Shown one piece after another: positions 389 to 60,458 of a DNA stretch of 64,000 nucleotides. The notes below the pieces were generated by a model, which saw only the letters and a program-made list of their open reading frames with translations, ran no database searches and was not told the origin of the DNA. Every line of letters begins with the position of its first letter. The stretch's first letter is position 1. Origin of the DNA: a virus; IMG/VR virus record IMGVR_UViG_3300014137_000003, one strand, 5' to 3'. The position numbers and the translations under genes are program-made.

Positions 389-721
389 ATGTTTAAATTA
401 TCTAATGGTAAAGAGTTTTCTCGTCTAGTCCTTACTAGTTTTGAAACTACATTAGGTTATATTACTAAATCTCCTAGTAAGGGGTACTCTTTTAAGTTAC
501 TGAATTGTGAGTCTATGCTACACAAGTTAATGCTTGCAGGTCTTGATGAGTCTTATTCGAGCGAACAGATTCAGTCTTGGATGAGTGAACATTTGACAGT
601 AACTCAAACCAGAGCTAATCGAAGTGAATGTTACCCTAGTTGGTGTCGTACTATGGAAGACGAGATTTATGCAATAAGTTCTACAAAGGATAAGCCTGCA
701 AGGAGTTGGCATTATGAATAA
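389..721 (+). CDS. hypothetical protein (110 aa), overlaps the HipA-like gene
   Basis: ATG 389 with AAGGAG at 376-381; stop overlaps next start by 8 nt. Confidence 0.6.
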   Translation: MFKLSNGKEFSRLVLTSFETTLGYITKSPSKGYSFKLLNCESMLHKLMLAGLDESYSSEQIQSWMSEHLTVTQTRANRSECYPSWCRTMEDEIYAISSTKDKPARSWHYE

Positions 722-1508
722 TTATTCTAGCTTTGATGGAGCTCAAGCAAAATGGTCATCTAAGGGGATTTGGTACAAAAGAGACCTTCGAGGTGGTGAG
801 GCAGTAGCTGAGACTTTGGTGTCTTTATTCTTAGAGTCTTGCTTAAATGTTACAGACTTTAGGACAGGTAACTATGGTTATGTTCCGTATAGGGTATCCC
901 CTAACGACAAGCGTGTTTGTCTATCCCCTAATTTCTTAGAAAATGGTAAGACTTTTGTATCTTTGTATGAGGCTATGAAGTTACTTAAACCTAAGTGGTC
1001 TGAGCATGCCGACTTTGAAGGTAAGCTAGAGTATATAGATAGTGTTTATAGAGGAATACTAGGGCATTCTTGTAAGAACTGGCTACTTATGGTACTAACC
1101 TTAGATGTTATGTTTCGCAATACTGATAGACACTTATCAAATCTAGGTTTTGTATCTGATAGGTGGGGAAATTTGCAAGTTGCTCCTATCTTCGACAATG
1201 GTATGGCTCTAGGGGTATCTGAGGGTGCTTACTTCGATTTAGCAAACACTGTTTCGGGTCTTGGGTTTAGAATTAAACCTTATGAGTTAACAGTAAGATA
1301 CTTGGAGAAGTATATTAACCCTAGTTACTTTGCATTTAGTGTAGATAAGTTTATTAAATGTTTCGATAAGAACATACCTAAAAATAACTTATTACTGGCA
1401 TTTCTAAACATCTTGGTACGTTACTATCCTAAAGATGCCCTTGGGGTGGATACAAAGAAGAAGTTAGAAGAATATTTCGGACCTTTTAGTTCTAAGAGGT
1501 TTATATAG
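714..1508 (+). CDS. HipA-like Ser/Thr kinase domain protein
   Basis: FRNTDRHLSNLGF and VAPIFDNG resemble the HipA_C catalytic loop (DxHxxN) and metal-binding (aPxxD) motifs. Confidence 0.5.
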   Translation: MNNYSSFDGAQAKWSSKGIWYKRDLRGGEAVAETLVSLFLESCLNVTDFRTGNYGYVPYRVSPNDKRVCLSPNFLENGKTFVSLYEAMKLLKPKWSEHADFEGKLEYIDSVYRGILGHSCKNWLLMVLTLDVMFRNTDRHLSNLGFVSDRWGNLQVAPIFDNGMALGVSEGAYFDLANTVSGLGFRIKPYELTVRYLEKYINPSYFAFSVDKFIKCFDKNIPKNNLLLAFLNILVRYYPKDALGVDTKKKLEEYFGPFSSKRFI

Positions 1509-22459: not shown

Positions 22460-22948
22460 ATGGAGAAGTACGATATTGTAATGGTTTTCCCAGCCATGGG
22501 AAAGACTGTGGTATCTGAGGAGGACTCTAGGTTTGTAGATTGTGACACTTTTAAGTATCACTATCGAATTCCTAATAAACTTTCTCATTTACCTATCGAT
22601 AAGTTAAAGGGTTCGGATAGTCTTATCCCAATCAATCATTGGGAAGATACATTTATTGAATCTTTAGAACATTGTAGTGGCGTTCCTTTGGTAAACACTA
22701 ATATTCTAATCTACAATAAATTGGTAGAACTTGGTAAGCGTGTATTAGTAGTATTACCATTAAAGAAAGACTTTGATTTGGTTATGCAGCGAATTAGGGA
22801 CCGAGGTGGAATTGACTATGACGATTCTTGGGTTTCTTGGTTCGAAAATTTATATTCGGAGTTTGGAAGAGCTAATGTTATAGAATACATTGGAGCTAAT
22901 GAGTTAAGTGAAAGGTTAAAAAGGTGGAAAGATTATGGCTACTTATAG
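22460..22948 (+). CDS. P-loop NTPase/kinase-like protein
   Basis: VMVFPAMGKT Walker-A-like motif at the N-terminus; small size. Confidence 0.35.
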   Translation: MEKYDIVMVFPAMGKTVVSEEDSRFVDCDTFKYHYRIPNKLSHLPIDKLKGSDSLIPINHWEDTFIESLEHCSGVPLVNTNILIYNKLVELGKRVLVVLPLKKDFDLVMQRIRDRGGIDYDDSWVSWFENLYSEFGRANVIEYIGANELSERLKRWKDYGYL

Positions 22949-23912
22949 TCTATTGAACAAAGAAGAGGTTGTAAAGTTACCTGACAAGAAAGTAGTACAG
23001 GGTATTGCTATCATTCAATCATATAATTCTGCTGAGGCAAAGAATGGTAGTTCTTACTTTAACGGGGTATTGAAGGCTCAAGGAGCTCTAGACTTTAAGG
23101 TTTGGGGTGGTAGTCTTTATGATCAGTTAGATGCGGAAGATTACAAGGGTACTCCAGTACTTGTAACTGGTGAAGTCAATGTTTGGAATGGCACTACCTC
23201 TCTTATTTTGACAAGTGTTATTGCCGTAGATCCTGAGGAGCTTGGTGTAGATATTACTTTGTTAGACCCTACCAAGTATGACATTTCTGCTAATGAAAAA
23301 GAATTTTATCGAACTCTAAAGGAAGAGTTGTCTGAAGAAGCCTTTGAACTCTTTAAGAAGATTTATGACAAAATTCGTCCAGCTTTTCGTCAGGAGTATG
23401 CAGCGGTAACTATTCACGATGCAAGTCGTGGTGGTTTGTTGGCTCATACACTTAAGATGTTGCGTATCTTGAAAACAACTTGGGGTAACTACCCTAACAT
23501 GCAGGAGCATGTTAATAAAGACATTGTATTCTTGGGGTTAGCAATTCATGATATGGGTAAAATCTTGGAGTACAATAATGGTACTCGAACTGATATTGCT
23601 TTTGCAACCCATAACTTCCTTGGTCAAGAAATCTTGTTTGAATTTAAAGATGATATCATCAACGGTTTTGATTATACATTTAAACCTATGAATGACATTA
23701 AGCACTTTGAAGGTTTTGGGGTAGATTTCTATTATCGTTTGCAGGCAGTTATTCAGCAACACCATGGTGAGTTTGGTGAGCCTTGTCATACTATTGAGTC
23801 TTATATTGTGCACATGGTTGATTTGTATGAATCTCGTATGCAGATGTTGGAAGAGAAGCTACCATTTACAGGCAGCTTGAATGTAGAGTTCGGTAAGTAC
23901 CGAGTGGAGTAG
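22935..23912 (+). CDS. YhaM-like 3'-5' exonuclease (OB fold + HD domain)
   Basis: OB-like N-terminus; GGLLAHTLKM, LAIHDMGK, QQHHGE HD-domain ligands; size as YhaM. Confidence 0.6.
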   Translation: MATYSLLNKEEVVKLPDKKVVQGIAIIQSYNSAEAKNGSSYFNGVLKAQGALDFKVWGGSLYDQLDAEDYKGTPVLVTGEVNVWNGTTSLILTSVIAVDPEELGVDITLLDPTKYDISANEKEFYRTLKEELSEEAFELFKKIYDKIRPAFRQEYAAVTIHDASRGGLLAHTLKMLRILKTTWGNYPNMQEHVNKDIVFLGLAIHDMGKILEYNNGTRTDIAFATHNFLGQEILFEFKDDIINGFDYTFKPMNDIKHFEGFGVDFYYRLQAVIQQHHGEFGEPCHTIESYIVHMVDLYESRMQMLEEKLPFTGSLNVEFGKYRVE

Positions 23913-49519: not shown

Positions 49520-49815
49520 TGGCTAAATATACGAAATATGACGGAACTCCTATTGAGGTAGATGCTCAGACCGAGTTGGTATATACTCGTTGGATTTCTC
49601 TTATCGGTGAGTTTGCTCGTTTTAGGAATTCAGGTAGGTTTCCTTTTTGGTCTGATGGGGTATATCTTCGCAAGAGCGATTTTCCTAGCTCTAATGCAGG
49701 GTTTAAACGTTTCTTGAAGTACACAATGCCACGCCATTATGATATTTACTGTACTGAGAAGTATAAAGTTACACCTATGAGTCAGCTTATTGCTGAGGTT
49801 TGTAGGAACGCTTAG
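49519..49815 (+). CDS. hypothetical protein
   Basis: ORF track. Confidence 0.5.
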   Translation: MAKYTKYDGTPIEVDAQTELVYTRWISLIGEFARFRNSGRFPFWSDGVYLRKSDFPSSNAGFKRFLKYTMPRHYDIYCTEKYKVTPMSQLIAEVCRNA

Positions 49816-49825
49816 GGGGTATAAG

Positions 49826-50296
49826 ATGTCAGAAAAGTTTGTAAAGGGTGAAGAATTGGTTCACCCAGAACGTTATACAAAGAACAAGATTGAATCTTGG
49901 GACTTCACTCTGCAGTCTCTATTCCCTCATACTATTGCAACGGTAGTTGAGTATGTAATTCGCTATAAACATAAGGGTGGGTTACAGGACTTAGAGAAGG
50001 CAATTAACTGGACAAAGAAGGCTAGTCAGTCTTATCAGTATATTAGGTTATGTAGACCTAGGGAGCTTACTAGGATTGAATACTTTAAGAGTGTACCTTT
50101 TGTAGATGAAACTAACTTCCCAGACCTCTCATGGGAACAGCTTTTGATTCTACAGCACGCTCAAATGTTAACATTCTACTTAGATAACGAAGAGAAGTTT
50201 AACAGTTATATTGCTAAAATCTTAGAATCACTTGAGAAGCTTGTGGAAATGGAAAAAGAGAAAGAAGGTAGTGGTAATGATTTCAATGAAAAGTAA
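49826..50296 (+). CDS. DUF3310-like protein, paralog of 55466-55894
   Basis: VHPERY..IESWDF....VIRYKHKGGLQDLEKAINW pattern; ATG 49826. Confidence 0.5.
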   Translation: MSEKFVKGEELVHPERYTKNKIESWDFTLQSLFPHTIATVVEYVIRYKHKGGLQDLEKAINWTKKASQSYQYIRLCRPRELTRIEYFKSVPFVDETNFPDLSWEQLLILQHAQMLTFYLDNEEKFNSYIAKILESLEKLVEMEKEKEGSGNDFNEK

Positions 50297-52143: not shown

Positions 52144-52377
52144 ATGTCAGAAGTTTCTATAGAACAGCGTGTTTCTTACTGGAAGAATAAAATAGGTATT
52201 GGTTCTGTATGGTTATTACAGAGTTTCAATACTCGCAAAGCTACAGTTGAGAGAGTATATTTCGACCTTAATTGTGGTTCAGTTGTAGTAGATTACACTT
52301 TAGAGGATTGTCCGCAAGCTATTCAGACTGCGGAAGTAGAGTATTTTCTAAACTACATTGTTCAGTGTAGGGCATAG
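52144..52377 (+). CDS. hypothetical protein, paralog of 58231-58467
   Basis: ..YWKNKIGIGSVWLLQ..FLNYIV vs ..HWRRLLPVGSVWLTQ..FYNYIV. Confidence 0.55.
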   Translation: MSEVSIEQRVSYWKNKIGIGSVWLLQSFNTRKATVERVYFDLNCGSVVVDYTLEDCPQAIQTAEVEYFLNYIVQCRA

Positions 52378-55172: not shown

Positions 55173-55430
55173 ATGAAAGACAAAGACAATTATAAGTCAA
55201 CAATGTGCGTCAAGCTGAATCACCCAGAAGCTTCAACGGTATTTAATGTTATCTGTACTAAGGAGCAAGAAAACTTTCTAAAGTTCTTAGCAAGTATTTC
55301 TACTAATGTTTCTATGAATAGGTATGAACCTACAATGAGTGTGGCTGAGGGGGTAGGGAACTGCGAAAGTGATACTTTAAACGGTACTAAGAAGGCTTTT
55401 ATCTTCGATGCAACAATGTTGGAGGAGTGA
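55173..55430 (+). CDS. hypothetical protein
   Basis: ATG 55173; ORF-track 55140 alternative. Confidence 0.45.
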   Translation: MKDKDNYKSTMCVKLNHPEASTVFNVICTKEQENFLKFLASISTNVSMNRYEPTMSVAEGVGNCESDTLNGTKKAFIFDATMLEE

Positions 55431-55465
55431 GAAGTATCTTGCTTACTAACGAAGTGGAGGTAATC

Positions 55466-55894
55466 ATGAAAGAAAAATTCGTAAAAGACGAAGAACTAGT
55501 AAATCCAGAACGGTATATGCAAAATAAGATTGAAGCTTGGGATTTTGCCATTCAAAGTCTCTTTCCTTACCCTCTAGGGGTAGTTTCTAAGTATGTAATT
55601 CGTCATAGACATAAGGGTGGTAAACAAGACTTAGAAAAGGCTCTTATTTGGGCTAAGAAAGCTAAGGAATCTTATAAGTATATTTCTTTGAGTTGTCCTA
55701 GTGGTATTATTTACTTTGAAGAGGTACCTAAGGCAAGTGTAGAGAACTTTCCAGACCTTGGTGACGAGGAGATTTTAATATTAAAACTTTTACAAGAGGT
55801 TACTTCTCGTCTAAGGGAGGAGGAGATGTTCGAAGGAGTAATGTCTCACATTATTAAAATATTAGAGGGAATGATAGAAAACTTCCCTAGTTAG
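55466..55894 (+). CDS. DUF3310-like protein, paralog of 49826-50296
   Basis: MKEKFVKDEELVNPERYMQNKIEAWDF.. closely parallels MSEKFVKGEELVHPERYTKNKIESWDF.. Confidence 0.5.
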   Translation: MKEKFVKDEELVNPERYMQNKIEAWDFAIQSLFPYPLGVVSKYVIRHRHKGGKQDLEKALIWAKKAKESYKYISLSCPSGIIYFEEVPKASVENFPDLGDEEILILKLLQEVTSRLREEEMFEGVMSHIIKILEGMIENFPS

Positions 55895-56448: not shown

Positions 56449-56830
56449 GGGGTCGTCTTGGATTCGACAGGCGACTGAGATTAAGAACTTCACTCCGAGT
56501 GGTGACGTAATCACCAAACTTAAATATAACTGCAAACACAGTTCAACCTGTTGAGATGGCAGCCTAACAAGTCTCCCTCGACTTGTATGTCTGTCTAATC
56601 AACACAAGTAAATTACCGATTAAGGTGAGCGACTATCTGTAAGTAACGGTGCAGTGGTAGCTATAAACCACGTTACTCGCTAGAAGGGGTATCTCAGCCC
56701 TCTAGTTAAATACGAGATATAGCTTTAGGGTTTGTGCATTTACCTAAGGTCGAATGTTTAAATGTAGCAGAGTGCTATAGAGTTTTTAGTTGAGGTTGTT
56801 TGGACGTGGGTTCGAAACCCACCGGCTCCA
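56449..56830 (+). ncRNA. ssrA: tmRNA (SsrA-like)
   Basis: 5' GGGGTCGTCTTGGATTCGACAGG; 3' GGACGTGGGTTCGAAACCCACCGGCTCCA; acceptor GGGGTCG/CGGCTCC with G3:U70; tag ORF 56532-56567 GCA AAC ACA GTT CAA CCT GTT GAG ATG GCA GCC TAA = ANTVQPVEMAA. Confidence 0.85.
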
Positions 56831-56833
56831 TTA

Positions 56834-56906
56834 GGCTTGATAGCTCAATTGGTAGAGCAGTGGACTCTTAATCCACGGGTTGTAGGTTCGAGCCCTACTC
56901 AGGTCA
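56834..56906 (+). tRNA. tRNA-Lys (anticodon CTT)
   Basis: Starts 3 nt after the tmRNA; GTGGA-CTCTTAA-TCCAC, GTAGG-TTCGAGC-CCTAC. Confidence 0.8.
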
Positions 56907-57335: not shown

Positions 57336-57408
57336 TCCACCATAGCTCAGTTGGTAGAGCACCTGACTGTTAATCAGGTTGTCACAGGTTCGAGACCTGT
57401 TGGTGGAG
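57336..57408 (+). tRNA. tRNA-Asn (anticodon GTT)
   Basis: TCCACCA/TGGTGGA acceptor, CCTGA-CTGTTAA-TCAGG, ACAGG-TTCGAGA-CCTGT. Confidence 0.85.
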
Positions 57409-57535
57409 TTCAGTAAAAATCTTCCCAGATATTTCCCTTTTACTGAAGCTAATCGTATAATTATCGATAAGACGACAGGAATACGGTTAGTCAGACCTAG
57501 CTAGGCAAGTCTAATTGTTTAGCTAGGTTTATTAT

Positions 57536-57677
57536 TGGGGTATAGCCAAGTGGTAAGGCAGTAAGAGAACTGTGGAACGGAGGTTCGAATCCTCTCAAGA
57601 CGACTAGGTCGTGCTTGTAGCCAAGGGGTAAGGCTCACAGCTACTTATGACCGTGGGTTCGAATCCCACTACCTCGA
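57536..57677 (+). ncRNA. double tRNA-like 'dumbbell' RNA: two cloverleaf bodies joined through their anticodon stems, no anticodon loop
   Basis: Outer body: acceptor 57536-42/57670-76, D arm 57545-59, stem 57561-65/57644-48, T arm 57653-69. Inner permuted body: stem 57570-74/57636-40, T arm 57579-95, capped acceptor-like helix 57596-604/57608-17, D arm 57620-34. Both T loops are TTCGAAT. Confidence 0.6.
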
Positions 57678-58230: not shown

Positions 58231-58467
58231 ATGGAAAAACAAACAATTCAAGAACAATTAGACCATTGGAGAAGGTTACTTCCAGTAGGTTCAGTGTGGC
58301 TTACTCAACAACTCTCTTGTAGGTTTGTAACAGTCAAGGGCGTTCATTATAGTTTATTTCCTAATTGTATTATGGTGCAGTACACTAGAGATGATGCACC
58401 TGACACAGTTTATCAAGAGATGGTAGGTGCTTTCTACAACTATATTGTAAGTAAACAAGTTAGATAA
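58231..58467 (+). CDS. hypothetical protein, paralog of 52144-52377
   Basis: See 52144-52377. Confidence 0.55.
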   Translation: MEKQTIQEQLDHWRRLLPVGSVWLTQQLSCRFVTVKGVHYSLFPNCIMVQYTRDDAPDTVYQEMVGAFYNYIVSKQVR

Positions 58468-60353: not shown

Positions 60354-60458
60354 ACTTGGGTAGTGATGAGGTGCAATTCCTTATCATGAATCGGAAAGCG
60401 TGACAGCGTACCTATCTTTAAGGGGTAGGTGATGAGGGTTCGAGCCCCTCTCCAAGTA
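60354..60458 (+). ncRNA. aberrant tRNA-like RNA: canonical anticodon (TAA), T and acceptor arms, D region replaced by a long hairpin
   Basis: ACTTGGG/TCCAAGT acceptor; CTATC-TTTAAGG-GGTAG; GAGGG-TTCGAGC-CCCTC; 8-9-bp hairpin 60363-60387 plus ~23 nt where the D arm should be. Confidence 0.35.

What the first reader, a model, noticed from the sequence alone, without database searches (positions are those of the whole stretch)
57536..57677. A 142-nt RNA folding as two complete tRNA bodies fused through their anticodon stems
Read as two tandem tRNAs, neither has an anticodon arm or a matching acceptor. Read as one nested RNA, everything pairs.

Outer body (tRNA-Gln-like):
- Acceptor TGGGGTA (57536-42) pairs with TACCTCG (57670-76).
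- D arm 57545-59.
- T arm GTGGG-TTCGAAT-CCCAC (57653-69).
- Stem GTAAG (57561-65) pairs with CTTAT (57644-48).

Inner body (circularly permuted):
- Stem CACAG (57636-40) pairs with CTGTG (57570-74).
- 4-nt variable region, then T arm GGAGG-TTCGAAT-CCTCT (57579-95).
- A 9-bp acceptor-like helix with one bulged G (57596-604 with 57608-17), capped by the triloop TAG.
- D arm 57620-34.

Both D loops carry GG. The two anticodon stems are linked by a 4 x 3-nt internal loop (AGAA / CTA), which is exactly 7 nt in total. If those 7 nt were joined for the inner body they would read CTAAGAA, a canonical C-U-NNN-A-A anticodon loop with anticodon AAG.

I know of no described phage RNA with this architecture. 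It recalls the capped tRNA-like module of bacterial YrlA/Y RNAs and permuted tRNA genes. It could be a decoy for tRNA-targeting host nucleases, a scaffold presenting two tRNA elbows, or a precursor processed by cleavage and ligation.
Basis: partly seen in the sequence, partly recalled or inferred. Interest (0 to 1): 0.85.

Follow-up and report, generated by a model that had tools for sequence, protein, structure and literature searches.

The report
Double tRNA-shaped RNA in oral phages
A 142-base gene in the tRNA cluster of an uncultivated, phage-like element from the human mouth encodes a conserved RNA that folds into two complete tRNA shapes joined where their anticodons should be; I found no earlier description of this design, and its function is unknown.

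Summary
It belongs to a family of 28 distinct sequences (139-143 nt, down to 65% identity, 5-9 lineages). These come from 120-290 kb IMG/VR and metagenome contigs, plus one Streptococcus-type plasmid-like replicon. On their alignment the nested fold has 96% canonical pairs and 21 of 42 pairs carry compensatory double changes. RNAalifold finds the same fold independently. The rival reading, two side-by-side cloverleaves, pairs only at shuffle level (47%).

The RNA is best described as two tandem tRNA-Gln/Cys-like units whose acceptor and anticodon-stem strands are swapped. One body has free ends. The other is circularly permuted and capped by a variable triloop. An irregular connector of about 12 bp, nearly invariant in sequence, replaces both anticodon loops.

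It is not a tRNA, an intron-containing or permuted tRNA gene, YrlA, tmRNA or T4 species 1 RNA.

It is most likely a stable, non-decoding tRNA mimic matured by the tRNA-processing machinery and acting by binding proteins, as a decoy or scaffold. That function is inferred, not shown. No prior description was found.

The parts
57536..57677 (+). Whole element: a 142-nt double tRNA-like RNA gene
   Evidence: Scores 152.3 bits over the full length of family model R1. The nested fold is supported by covariation.
57536..57542 (+). Outer acceptor stem, 5' strand (TGGGGTA). In this lineage it carries G3.U70, G2-C71 and G4-C69.
   Evidence: Pairs with 57670-57676. Four of 7 pairs covary in the family.
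57545..57559 (+). Outer D arm (GCCA AGTGGTA AGGC), of the tRNA-Gln/Cys type
   Evidence: Invariant in 28 sequences. Best matches are the D arms of tRNA-Gln and tRNA-Cys in the fetched loci.
57561..57565 (+). Outer connector stem, 5' strand (GTAAG; the outer 'anticodon stem')
   Evidence: Pairs with 57644-57648. 98.6% of cells are paired, with one compensatory A-U to G-C change; otherwise nearly invariant.
57566..57569 (+). Connector internal loop, 5' side (AGAA; AGA in most lineages)
   Evidence: A31, G32 and A34 are invariant. RNAalifold pairs A31-U108 and G32-C107.
57570..57574 (+). Inner connector stem, 3' strand (CTGTG)
   Evidence: Pairs with 57636-57640. All 5 pairs show compensatory changes among lineage representatives.
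57575..57578 (+). Variable region of the inner body (GAAC)
   Evidence: Its last base forms the Levitt-type tertiary pair with the inner D loop. This pair is C-G in 27 sequences and U-A in L028.
57579..57595 (+). T arm of the inner body (GGAGG TTCGAAT CCTCT)
   Evidence: Three of 5 pairs covary. The loop keeps TTCRANT.
57596..57617 (+). Capped acceptor-like helix of the inner body (CAAGACGAC / TAG / GTCGTGCTTG, with a bulged G)
   Evidence: Six of 9 pairs covary. The capping loop sequence and the bulges vary between lineages.
57620..57634 (+). D arm of the inner body (GCCA AGGGGTA AGGC)
   Evidence: Stem is invariant and the GG is conserved.
57636..57640 (+). Inner connector stem, 5' strand (CACAG)
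   Evidence: Partner of 57570-57574.
57641..57643 (+). Connector internal loop, 3' side (CTA; CUN in the family)
   Evidence: C107 and U108 are conserved and N109 is variable (A, G or C).
57644..57648 (+). Outer connector stem, 3' strand (CTTAT)
   Evidence: Partner of 57561-57565.
57649..57669 (+). Variable region (GACC) and T arm (GTGGG TTCGAAT CCCAC) of the outer body
   Evidence: Four of 5 T-stem pairs covary. The G15-C48 pair is kept.
57670..57677 (+). Outer acceptor stem, 3' strand (TACCTCG) plus discriminator A; no CCA is encoded
   Evidence: The discriminator is A in 27 of 28 sequences.
57496..57535 (+). Upstream 8-bp hairpin (CCTAGCTA ... TAGCTAGG, 16-nt loop) followed by TTTATTAT, abutting the 5' end. 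Probably a leader or terminator-like signal; its role is not established.
   Evidence: Seen directly in the sequence. Conserved only in the window lineage. Not called by the terminator scan.

Best explanation
What it is. The element is a dedicated gene for a stable, non-decoding RNA of about 140 nt. It is built from two tandem tRNA-Gln/Cys-like units whose strands are swapped. The acceptor 5' strand and 'anticodon-stem' 5' strand of unit A pair with the matching 3' strands of unit B, and the reverse. Each D arm and each T arm folds locally.

What results. The product has two complete tRNA L-shaped bodies.
- The outer body has free 5' and 3' ends and a discriminator A.
- The inner body is circularly permuted. 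Its acceptor helix (8-9 bp) is closed by a variable triloop.
- The two are joined by a connector that replaces both anticodon loops: a 5-bp stem, a 3 x 3 internal loop (AGA/CUN, able to form A-U and G-C pairs flanked by two single-base bulges), then a 4-5-bp stem. Its length is fixed and its sequence is nearly invariant.

How it most likely works (inferred).
- It is transcribed within the element's tRNA operon, or from its own promoter on a plasmid-like replicon.
- The outer body is matured like a tRNA: RNase P at the 5' end, 3' trimming and CCA addition, and modification of the T and D loops.
- It accumulates as a stable RNA that cannot decode. It acts by binding proteins that recognise tRNA shape.
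- Most probably it is a bivalent decoy or sponge for a host tRNA-targeting factor, or a Y-RNA-like tether. The conserved connector would fix the geometry of the two bodies or be a recognition site itself.

My confidence by step: architecture and selection on the RNA fold about 0.95; maturation through the tRNA pathway about 0.7; decoy or scaffold function about 0.4.
For: Shown by tool results:
- Every helix is present.
- 28 distinct homologues fall into 5-9 lineages with a minimum identity of 65%.
- The nested fold has 96.4% canonical cells and 21 of 42 compensatory pairs, and beats all 500 shuffles and all slid controls. The same holds for 9 lineage representatives.
- RNAalifold recovers the nested fold and adds the invariant A31-U108 and G32-C107 pairs; in L011 the second becomes G.U.
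- Pair 35-106 covaries: U-A in 12 sequences, C-G in 7.
- The tertiary Levitt pair of the inner body covaries: C-G in 27, U-A in 1.
- U8, A14, G18G19 and the TTCRANT loop are conserved in both bodies.
- If a 7-nt loop is inserted in silico, ARAGORN calls the outer body as a tRNA in 28 of 28 sequences and the inner body in 22 of 28. It calls none of the 28 native elements.
- Family model R1 separates members (133-158 bits) from everything else (66 bits or less). There is one copy per locus.

Evidence bearing on maturation:
- The element is always on the same strand as the tRNA/tmRNA cluster.
- In most lineages it ends 16-17 nt before tRNA-Pro.
- Neither the element nor any tRNA or the tmRNA of the window encodes CCA.
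- In L062 the element stands alone. A 12/12 consensus promoter ends about 37 nt upstream, and a hairpin plus T-run terminator starts 25 nt downstream. It lies beside the iterons and Rep_3 gene of a Streptococcus-type replicon.
- Precedent: YrlA tRNA-like modules are modified by TruB and DusA. The M. smegmatis YrlA module is cut by RNase P and receives CCA in vivo (PMC4201824).

Evidence bearing on function:
- Presence on two unrelated kinds of mobile element fits a role in conflict between mobile elements and the host better than a role in codon supply.
- There is no anticodon loop.
Against: - There is no expression, end-mapping or binding data. The function is inference only.
- No conserved neighbouring protein gene points to a partner.
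- No Ro60/TROVE, RtcB, RNA ligase or CCA-enzyme gene was seen among 40 ORFs of at least 150 aa in the 64-kb window. The rest of the genome is unseen.
- Most known tRNA-targeting defence nucleases cut the anticodon loop, which this RNA lacks.
- The inner body has been lost by T-arm-by-T-arm deletion at least twice (L027/L029/L060/L063, and L042). The double form is therefore dispensable in some genomes.
- Single-sequence thermodynamics do not favour the nested fold for the window copy.
Confidence: 0.6

Rival explanations
1. Two-piece, two-ended molecule. RNase P and a 3' nuclease open the capped inner acceptor hairpin. This leaves two RNAs of about 70 nt held together by the swapped helices. 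Both acceptor ends receive CCA and may be aminoacylated. This is a variant of the main explanation, not an opposite.
For: M. smegmatis YrlA, which has a closed 7-bp acceptor, is cut by RNase P and gets CCA in vivo (PMC4201824). The inner T stem plus acceptor helix form the 12-bp stack that RNase P measures (established knowledge). The inner acceptor helix covaries strongly.
Against: The cap is a tight 3-5-nt loop of variable sequence on an 8-9-bp helix. The helix carries lineage-specific bulges (bulged G in the window group, bulged U in the L013 group). The bases at the -1 and 73 positions are paired in 27 of 28 sequences. This looks like a structural helix rather than a conserved processing or charging site. 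Salmonella YrlA and D. radiodurans Yrn1, which do not have a 7-bp acceptor stem, are not cut.
Confidence: 0.2
2. Precursor of real tRNA(s). The connector is cut on both strands and the ends are religated crosswise. This would yield a permuted or split tRNA with a contiguous anticodon loop, as in archaeal split tRNAs or algal permuted tRNA genes.
For: In the window lineage the two loop sides sum to 7 nt and read C-U-N-A-G-A-A. ARAGORN in intron mode calls all 28 elements as full-length 'intron-containing tRNAs'.
Against: - 21 of 28 sequences give a 6-nt joined loop.
- The would-be wobble base is A, G or C and never U.
- ARAGORN's assigned anticodons disagree between lineages: Val, Leu, Gly.
- The AG and CU bases are predicted to pair with each other.
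- There is no bulge-helix-bulge motif, and no group I intron or other Rfam match.
- No RNA ligase or splicing endonuclease was seen in the window.
- The outer body would be left with no usable loop.
Confidence: 0.06
3. Y RNA analogue. The inner capped module works like the YrlA tRNA-like module, and the RNA tethers a Ro60/Rsr-type or other ring protein to a nuclease.
For: The module order matches: T arm, capped acceptor, D arm, with ends leaving through the 'anticodon' stem. YrlA genes occur in phages (PMC4201824). The window encodes a YhaM-like 3'-5' exoribonuclease, which shows that the element carries RNA-turnover genes.
Against: The element scores 15 bits against the 69-bit gathering score of RF02553, and that model scores higher on a tmRNA/tRNA junction. 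There is no Ro-binding helix or GNCGAAN0-1G motif. No TROVE-domain ORF is present in the 64-kb window. The stem that binds Ro in YrlA is replaced here by a complete tRNA body.
Confidence: 0.1
4. Cis-acting processing or stability element of the tRNA operon with no function in trans. For example it could be a site for RNase III, RNase P or RNase Z, or a 'tRNA scaffold' protecting neighbouring transcripts.
For: It is embedded in the tRNA cluster, 16-17 nt upstream of tRNA-Pro in most lineages. The coaxial D stem, connector and D stem give about two helical turns with a conserved internal loop, which recalls phage RNase III sites (own knowledge).
Against: In L062 it is a stand-alone transcription unit with its own promoter and terminator, and ARAGORN finds no tRNA gene in the 12.5-kb locus. 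All tertiary-contact nucleotides of both bodies are conserved, which goes beyond what a cleavage signal needs.
Confidence: 0.08
5. Non-functional debris: two decayed tandem tRNA genes, or an assembly artefact.
For: Degenerate tRNA-like genes do occur in phage tRNA clusters, for example L012, L002 and L007 and the window's weak second tRNA-Leu. Collapsed single-body derivatives exist.
Against: There are compensatory changes in six helices across 5-9 lineages and independent assemblies. The cis cloverleaf pairing is at chance level. Dozens of independent contigs carry the element.
Confidence: 0.02

Closest known systems
YrlA / bacterial Y RNA tRNA-like module (Rfam RF02553; Chen et al. 2014, PMC4201824)
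   Same: Both contain a non-decoding tRNA mimic with the order T arm, capped acceptor-like helix, D arm. In both, the strands leave through the position of the anticodon stem. Elbow nucleotides are conserved. YrlA occurs in bacteria and phages.
   Different: The helix that binds Ro60 in YrlA is replaced here by a second, complete tRNA body with an open acceptor end. No Ro-binding motif is present and no rsr gene is seen nearby. The model score is far below threshold (15 against 69 bits).
tmRNA, including circularly permuted two-piece tmRNA
   Same: Both have a tRNA-like body (acceptor, T arm, D-loop element) with a large insert where the anticodon arm would be. Both are matured by tRNA enzymes. 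A tmRNA gene lies about 700 nt upstream in the same cluster. The window lineage has an AlaRS-like G3.U70 with A73.
   Different: The element has no reading frame, no pseudoknots and no match to the tmRNA models beyond the T arm. G3.U70 is absent from the other lineages (G-C in 20, A-U in 1).
Circularly permuted and split tRNA genes (Cyanidioschyzon merolae; Nanoarchaeum). From own knowledge.
   Same: The inner body is encoded with its 3' half before its 5' half. The flanking sequences pair with each other.
   Different: Those genes yield ordinary tRNAs with an intact 7-nt anticodon loop, after cleavage at a bulge-helix-bulge motif and ligation. Here there is no bulge-helix-bulge motif and no consistent anticodon loop, and the acceptor is capped by only a 3-5-nt loop.
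Phage T4 species 1 RNA (rnaC, 139 nt) and species 2 RNA (rnaD)
   Same: These are stable small RNAs of unknown function encoded inside a phage tRNA cluster. rnaC is almost the same length as the element. rnaC ends in a T arm and an acceptor-like stem.
   Different: rnaC has a single T arm and long hairpins, and no second tRNA body. It does not match family model R1.
Engineered 'tRNA scaffold' RNAs (Ponchon and Dardel). From own knowledge; usage is listed.
   Same: A tRNA body whose anticodon arm is replaced by a structured insert. This makes the chimera a substrate for tRNA maturation and very stable in vivo.
   Different: That design is artificial. Here the arrangement is natural, and the insert is itself a permuted tRNA-like body.

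Membership tests
tRNA (Rfam RF00005; ARAGORN) | One contiguous cloverleaf that reaches the model threshold of 29 bits | tested here: not met
   There are only two partial hits, 23.6 bits (57543-57595) and 22.6 bits (57616-57671). ARAGORN in default mode calls none of the 28 family members.
tRNA (Rfam RF00005; ARAGORN) | An anticodon arm with a 7-nt loop | tested here: not met
   Both 'loops' are 3-4 nt and face each other as an internal loop.
tRNA (Rfam RF00005; ARAGORN) | D arm, T arm, acceptor stem and tertiary-contact nucleotides (U8, A14, G18G19, T54-A58, R15-Y48) | tested here: met
   All are present in both bodies. The 15-48 pair of the inner body covaries. Bodies repaired in silico with a 7-nt loop are called as tRNA: 28 of 28 outer, 22 of 28 inner.
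Intron-containing tRNA | Removing the insert leaves a tRNA with a consistent anticodon, and a known splicing signal is present (group I intron or bulge-helix-bulge) | tested here: not met
   ARAGORN in intron mode of 28, but the anticodons are inconsistent: Val, Leu, Gly. There is no intron family in Rfam scans. The connector is a 3 x 3 loop, not a bulge-helix-bulge.
Circularly permuted tRNA gene | The 3' half is encoded before the 5' half | tested here: met
   The inner body runs stem 3' strand, variable region, T arm, acceptor 3' strand, loop, acceptor 5' strand, D arm, stem 5' strand.
Circularly permuted tRNA gene | Processing gives a normal tRNA with free acceptor ends and a contiguous 7-nt anticodon loop | tested here: not met
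   The joined loop is 6 nt in 21 of 28 sequences. The acceptor is capped by a 3-5-nt loop. The processing itself cannot be tested here.
YrlA / Y RNA-like (RF02553) | Reaches the Rfam gathering score of 69 bits | tested here: not met
   15.0 bits. The same model gives 26.4 bits on the tmRNA/tRNA-Lys junction.
YrlA / Y RNA-like (RF02553) | A Ro60-binding stem with the conserved GNCGAAN0-1G motif formed by the 5' and 3' ends | tested here: not met
   The ends form a 7-bp tRNA acceptor stem. No such motif occurs outside the T loops (motif taken from PMC4201824).
YrlA / Y RNA-like (RF02553) | Encoded next to an rsr (Ro60, TROVE domain) gene | tested here: inconclusive
   No TROVE hit among 40 ORFs of at least 150 aa in the window, nor in L062 neighbours. 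The rest of these 120-290-kb genomes was not available.
tmRNA (RF00023 / RF04321) | A tRNA-like domain plus a tag reading frame and pseudoknots, with a model match | tested here: not met
   Only the 18-nt T arm matches, at 12.6 bits. ARAGORN calls the true tmRNA at 56449-56830 and nothing here.
T4 species 1 RNA (rnaC) | Shared architecture or sequence | tested here: not met
   rnaC folds into long hairpins plus one T arm. R1 has no hit on rnaC in L070.
New family defined here (model R1) | A full-length match to the 140-position, 44-pair nested model, well separated from tRNAs | tested here: met
   The window copy scores 152.3 bits. Members score 133-158 bits and the best non-member 66.5 bits.

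The most novel reading that the evidence does not exclude
This is the first example of a new class of RNA carried by mobile elements: a bivalent, anticodon-less 'Siamese' tRNA. It arose by strand-swapping of a tandem tRNA duplication. Phage-like elements and plasmids of oral Firmicutes would use it to trap or mis-direct a tRNA-recognising host factor, such as a dimeric tRNA nuclease or toxin, or a processing or modification enzyme. The invariant connector would set the spacing of the two tRNA bodies or serve as the actual recognition site.
Probability: 0.3. Interest if true: 0.9.

Novelty: new variant of a known kind. Interest (0 to 1): 0.72.

Why it matters
tRNA mimicry is a recurring strategy: tmRNA, Y RNAs, viral tRNA-like structures and phage tRNAs that evade anticodon nucleases. 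All described mimics present one tRNA body. Here comparative evidence supports, helix by helix, a natural RNA with two complete tRNA bodies held in a fixed arrangement by a conserved connector. It shows a simple evolutionary route to a new fold: duplicate a tRNA, shorten the loops, and let the strands swap partners. It is carried by very poorly known large mobile elements of the human mouth and by a streptococcal-type replicon. It gives RNA structural biologists a compact new architecture. It also gives the phage-defence field a concrete candidate for an RNA decoy or scaffold, testable with standard tools such as RNase P and CCA assays, pull-downs and cryo-EM. If it turns out to be only a stable by-product of the tRNA operon, it still warns that tRNA finders miss such genes.

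Tried and rejected
- Standard annotation. ARAGORN in default mode and Rfam at gathering thresholds do not call the element.
- Single-sequence MFE of the window copy gives a different fold in which the T arms pair with each other. I rejected it as the native fold because covariation supports the nested one.
- BLAST searches. blastn and tblastn against INPHARED phages and PLSDB plasmids found no homologue of the element. The neighbouring 362-aa ORF also has no match. The DNA polymerase is at most 28% identical to that of any isolate phage.
- Two tandem cloverleaves: rejected.
- Intron-containing or split tRNA with anticodon NAG: rejected as a family feature.
- T4 species 1 RNA as a homologue: rejected.
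- A conserved protein partner.
  - The P-loop 159-aa ORF just upstream occurs in one subclade only.
  - The 398-aa ORF shared by L062 and some phage loci looks like a transposase and is probably incidental.
  - There are no PADLOC hits.
- One IMG/VR scan was wasted on a mis-spaced pattern. The corrected second-half pattern found no new members.
- A scan for the same shortened D-arm-to-T-arm spacing with the common GCTCAG-type D arm found many single tRNA-like genes but no nested doubles.
- Papers on oral jumbo phages and 'Inocle' elements do not mention the RNA. Inocles differ in G+C content and replication genes.
Full report
**1. The observation**

The element lies in a tRNA cluster on the + strand. 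The cluster holds tmRNA at 56449-56833, tRNA-Lys at 56834, tRNA-Asn at 57336, then tRNA-Glu, tRNA-Pro and two tRNA-Leu further downstream. Neither ARAGORN nor Rfam at gathering thresholds calls the element. A permissive Rfam scan finds only three things:
- two sub-threshold partial tRNA matches, one per half (23.6 and 22.6 bits against a threshold of 29);
- a T-arm-only tmRNA match;
- a 15-bit YrlA match, against a threshold of 69.

The MFE fold of this copy alone is not the nested fold, because the two near-identical, partly palindromic T arms pair with each other.

**2. Homologues**

blastn and tblastn against isolate phages found nothing. Pattern scans of IMG/VR, metagenome and GTDB contigs were more productive. 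They used the Gln-type D arm and the abnormally short distance from D arm to T arm.

These scans recovered 28 distinct full-length elements of 139-143 nt. The elements fall into 9 clusters at 95% identity and 5 at 85%, with a minimum identity of 65%. Most sit on contigs of 120-290 kb from human-associated (HMP-type, oral) samples. One such contig was binned into a Mogibacterium MAG.

A covariance model built from the alignment (R1) scores members at 133-158 bits. The window copy scores 152.3. The best non-members are ordinary tandem tRNAs at 66 bits or less. Each locus has exactly one copy.

**3. Structure test**

On alignment A1 the nested structure performs as follows:
- 96.4% canonical cells, against a shuffle mean of 87.2% (0 of 500 shuffles reach the observed value) and 38-52% when partners are slid by 1-3 columns;
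- 21 of 42 pairs have changes on both sides;
- covariation score 0.359 against 0.187 in shuffles.

Using one sequence per 95% cluster, compensatory pairs are found in these helices:

| Helix | Compensatory pairs |
|---|---|
| Outer acceptor | 4 of 7 |
| Outer connector stem | 1 of 5 |
| Inner connector stem | 5 of 5 |
| Inner T stem | 3 of 5 |
| Capped acceptor helix | 6 of 9 |
| Outer T stem | 4 of 5 |

The D stems are invariant.

RNAalifold, given no structure, returns the same nested fold. It adds two invariant pairs inside the 'internal loop': A31-U108 and G32-C107, the latter becoming G.U in L011. Column pair 35-106 covaries (U-A in 12, C-G in 7, unpaired in 9). The Levitt-type tertiary pair of the inner body changes from G-C to A-U in L028.

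The competing reading, two ordinary side-by-side cloverleaves, gives 46.8% canonical cells, indistinguishable from shuffles.

If a 7-nt loop is inserted in silico to separate the bodies, ARAGORN calls the outer body as a tRNA in 28 of 28 cases and the inner body in 22 of 28. It calls none of the native elements. The L062 copy folds into the nested structure by MFE alone (z = -3.7). Across members the nested secondary structure lies 3-16 kcal/mol above the nearest-neighbour MFE. That is not unusual for tRNA-like RNAs, whose tertiary contacts are not scored by the energy model.

**4. Anatomy**

The clearest description is a strand-swapped (domain-swapped) tandem dimer.
- Unit A (columns 1-69) and unit B (columns 73-143) each run: acceptor 5' strand, D arm, stem 5' strand, 3-4-nt loop, stem 3' strand, 4-nt variable region, T arm, acceptor 3' strand.
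- The acceptor strands and stem strands of A pair with those of B, not with each other.

The outcome has three parts.
- An outer body with free ends. The discriminator is A in 27 of 28 sequences, and no CCA is encoded.
- An inner, circularly permuted body. Its 8-9-bp acceptor helix is closed by a 3-5-nt loop of variable sequence. Bulges in the helix differ between lineages.
- A connector: a 5-bp outer stem (GUAAG/CUUAU, nearly invariant), the loop sides AGA(A) and CUN, and a 4-5-bp inner stem that covaries freely. Its length is fixed to within 1 nt.

Both bodies keep U8, A14, G18G19, the TTCRANT loop and the R15-Y48 pair. Both should therefore form authentic tRNA elbows.

Both 5' halves most resemble the tRNA-Gln and tRNA-Cys of the same and related elements. 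R1's best single-tRNA hits are the phage tRNA-Gln genes. I infer that the element arose by tandem duplication of a Gln-type tRNA gene, followed by shortening of the loops and divergence that locked in the swapped pairing.

**5. The '7-nt anticodon loop'**

Only the window lineage (7 of 28) has a 4 x 3 loop. The other 21 have 3 x 3, giving CUN|AGA, which is 6 nt. The would-be wobble base is A, G or C. ARAGORN's intron mode calls every element as a full-span 'tRNA with a 67-69-nt intron', but the assigned anticodons differ between lineages: Val, Leu, Gly. There is no bulge-helix-bulge motif, no intron family match, and no ligase or endonuclease gene in the window. I therefore consider a cut-and-religate pathway to a decoding tRNA unlikely.

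**6. Context**

In all phage-like loci the element is co-oriented with a cluster of tRNAs plus a tmRNA. In most lineages it ends 16-17 nt before tRNA-Pro. None of the window's tRNAs, nor its tmRNA, encodes CCA. The element is thus positioned to be matured by RNase P, 3' trimming and CCA addition, like its neighbours.

The most informative case is L062, an 87-kb contig. There the element stands alone.
- A perfect TTGACA-17-TATAAT promoter lies at 67-95.
- The element occupies 132-271.
- A 10-bp hairpin plus T-run terminator lies at 296-319.
- Five 22-bp iterons follow.
- Next comes a Rep_3 initiator gene. Its product is 84% identical to the Rep of a Streptococcus pseudopneumoniae plasmid, and that plasmid lacks the element.

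The RNA is therefore an autonomous gene, and it has moved between unrelated mobile elements of (probably) oral streptococci or other Firmicutes.

The 64-kb window encodes replication and nucleotide-metabolism functions: PolA, an NAD-dependent ligase split over two ORFs, RNase HII, a Toprim protein, SbcCD-like proteins, an ATP-cone protein and a YhaM-like exoribonuclease. It encodes no TROVE/Ro60, RtcB, RNA ligase or CCA enzyme. No protein gene is consistently adjacent to the element.

I did not see capsid or terminase genes in this window. The 'phage' label rests on IMG/VR classification of the homologous contigs.

**7. Loss variants**

Five contigs in two lineages carry a 67-nt single-body derivative: L027/L029/L060/L063, and independently L042. 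Recombination between the two T arms has deleted the inner body and the 3' strand of the outer connector stem (50-56 bits). This confirms the direction of change, which is deletion rather than insertion. It also shows that the double form is not indispensable everywhere.

**8. How it probably works**

Shown:
- a conserved RNA-level fold under purifying selection;
- two tRNA bodies;
- no anticodon loop;
- tRNA-operon or stand-alone expression signals.

Inferred more weakly: because it cannot decode and is carried by different mobile elements, it most likely acts by binding tRNA-recognising proteins. It could be a bivalent decoy for a host tRNA-targeting factor or a Y-RNA-like tether. The invariant connector of fixed length suggests a defined geometry or a specific recognition site.

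Two further points.
- Whether the capped acceptor is opened by RNase P is open. I put this at about 0.2.
- The window lineage alone has G2-C71, G3.U70, G4-C69 and A73, the classical AlaRS determinants (own knowledge). That copy might be alanylated like tmRNA, but this is not a family trait.

**9. Comparison with known families**

The element fails defining tests for tRNA, intron-containing tRNA, permuted tRNA genes, YrlA, tmRNA and T4 species 1 RNA (see the membership table).
- It works most like the tRNA-like module of YrlA placed in a natural tRNA scaffold.
- Topologically it resembles tmRNA, with an insert in place of the anticodon arm.

Five full-text literature searches found no description of a nested or strand-swapped double tRNA-like RNA. 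The oral jumbo-phage and Inocle papers do not mention it either. A scan for the same spacing anomaly with the commonest D-arm type found no further nested doubles. As far as I could see, the family is confined to this group of oral elements.

**10. Verdict**

I rate it a new variant of a known kind (tRNA-mimic non-coding RNAs) with an architecture I could not find described. Interest is 0.72.

Noticed in passing
L027:922-988, L029:11921-11987, L060:6075-6141 (-), L063; L042:1015-1081: These are 67-nt single-body derivatives of the element. A deletion between the two near-identical T arms has removed the inner body. It arose independently in two lineages and is found in several independent assemblies.
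   Followed up: partly
L062:1-1450 (contig ODIQ01000077.1, 87 kb): A stand-alone copy of the element has a 12/12 consensus promoter and an intrinsic terminator. It lies directly upstream of five 22-bp iterons and a Rep_3 initiator that is 84% identical to that of a Streptococcus pseudopneumoniae plasmid. A sortase gene lies downstream. This is a plasmid-like context, not a phage one.
   Followed up: yes
window 56449-56833 and 56834-56906: The phage-like element carries its own tmRNA (tag ANTVQPVEMAA). tRNA-Lys(CTT) follows it after only 3 nt. Related loci all carry tmRNA genes with tags ending MAA, MVA or VAA.
   Followed up: partly
window 60389-60458: ARAGORN calls a second tRNA-Leu(TAA) of 70 nt. 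Rfam scores it at only 26.6 bits, below threshold, so it may be a degenerate or atypical tRNA.
   Followed up: no
window 22935-23912: A 325-aa HD-domain ORF aligns over nearly its whole length to the Firmicute 3'-5' exoribonuclease YhaM (E = 2e-13, below the equivalog cut-off). An RNA-trimming enzyme encoded by the element could bear on 3'-end maturation of its tRNAs.
   Followed up: no
window 714-1508: A 264-aa ORF has a weak, sub-threshold HipA_C kinase-like match (Pfam E = 3e-4; NCBIfam YjjJ E = 5e-3). HipA-family kinases target aminoacyl-tRNA synthetases. The hit is too weak to interpret.
   Followed up: no
window 52144-52377 and 58231-58467; also 49790-50296 and 55427-55894: Paralogous small ORFs are scattered through the tRNA region. 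One pair of 77/78-aa proteins is 34% identical (E = 4e-17). There are also two DUF3310 proteins.
   Followed up: partly
L062:3924-5120; L056:1926-3095; L006:151-1317; L065:9034-9474: A 398-aa ORF with only a weak PHROG 'transposase' hit is shared at 41-48% identity between the plasmid-like contig and several phage-like contigs that carry the element, a few kb from it. It is probably a mobile gene. A functional link is not excluded.
   Followed up: partly
L071-L150 (for example L088:1161-1211, L074:483-533): Many IMG/VR contigs carry single tRNA-like genes with a normal GCTCAG-type D arm, a T arm, a matching acceptor stem and an encoded CCA. The distance from D arm to T arm is 3-8 nt too short for a normal anticodon arm. 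They are often preceded by ATG.
   Followed up: no
L002:6437-6504 (-), L007:3176-3239 (-), L012:2047-2215 (-): These are other Gln-type tRNA-like genes with truncated anticodon regions, in unrelated viral contigs. L012 is a tRNA-Gln missing the 5' strand of its anticodon stem, next to an intact tRNA-Gln.
   Followed up: no
window 57496-57535: An 8-bp hairpin with a 16-nt loop, followed by TTTATTAT, ends exactly at the 5' end of the element. It is conserved only in the window lineage. Other lineages have a different hairpin (GAGGTAGA...TCTACCTC) about 30-60 nt upstream.
   Followed up: partly
L037:5619-6098 and homologues in L004, L006, L009, L013, L023, L024, L026, L034, L036, L038, L044, L050, L064, L067: A 159-aa ORF has a Walker-A-like motif (FPCLGKTT) and no family match. 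It lies immediately upstream of the element in one subclade only. It is absent from the window, and in L033 it lies far from the element.
   Followed up: partly
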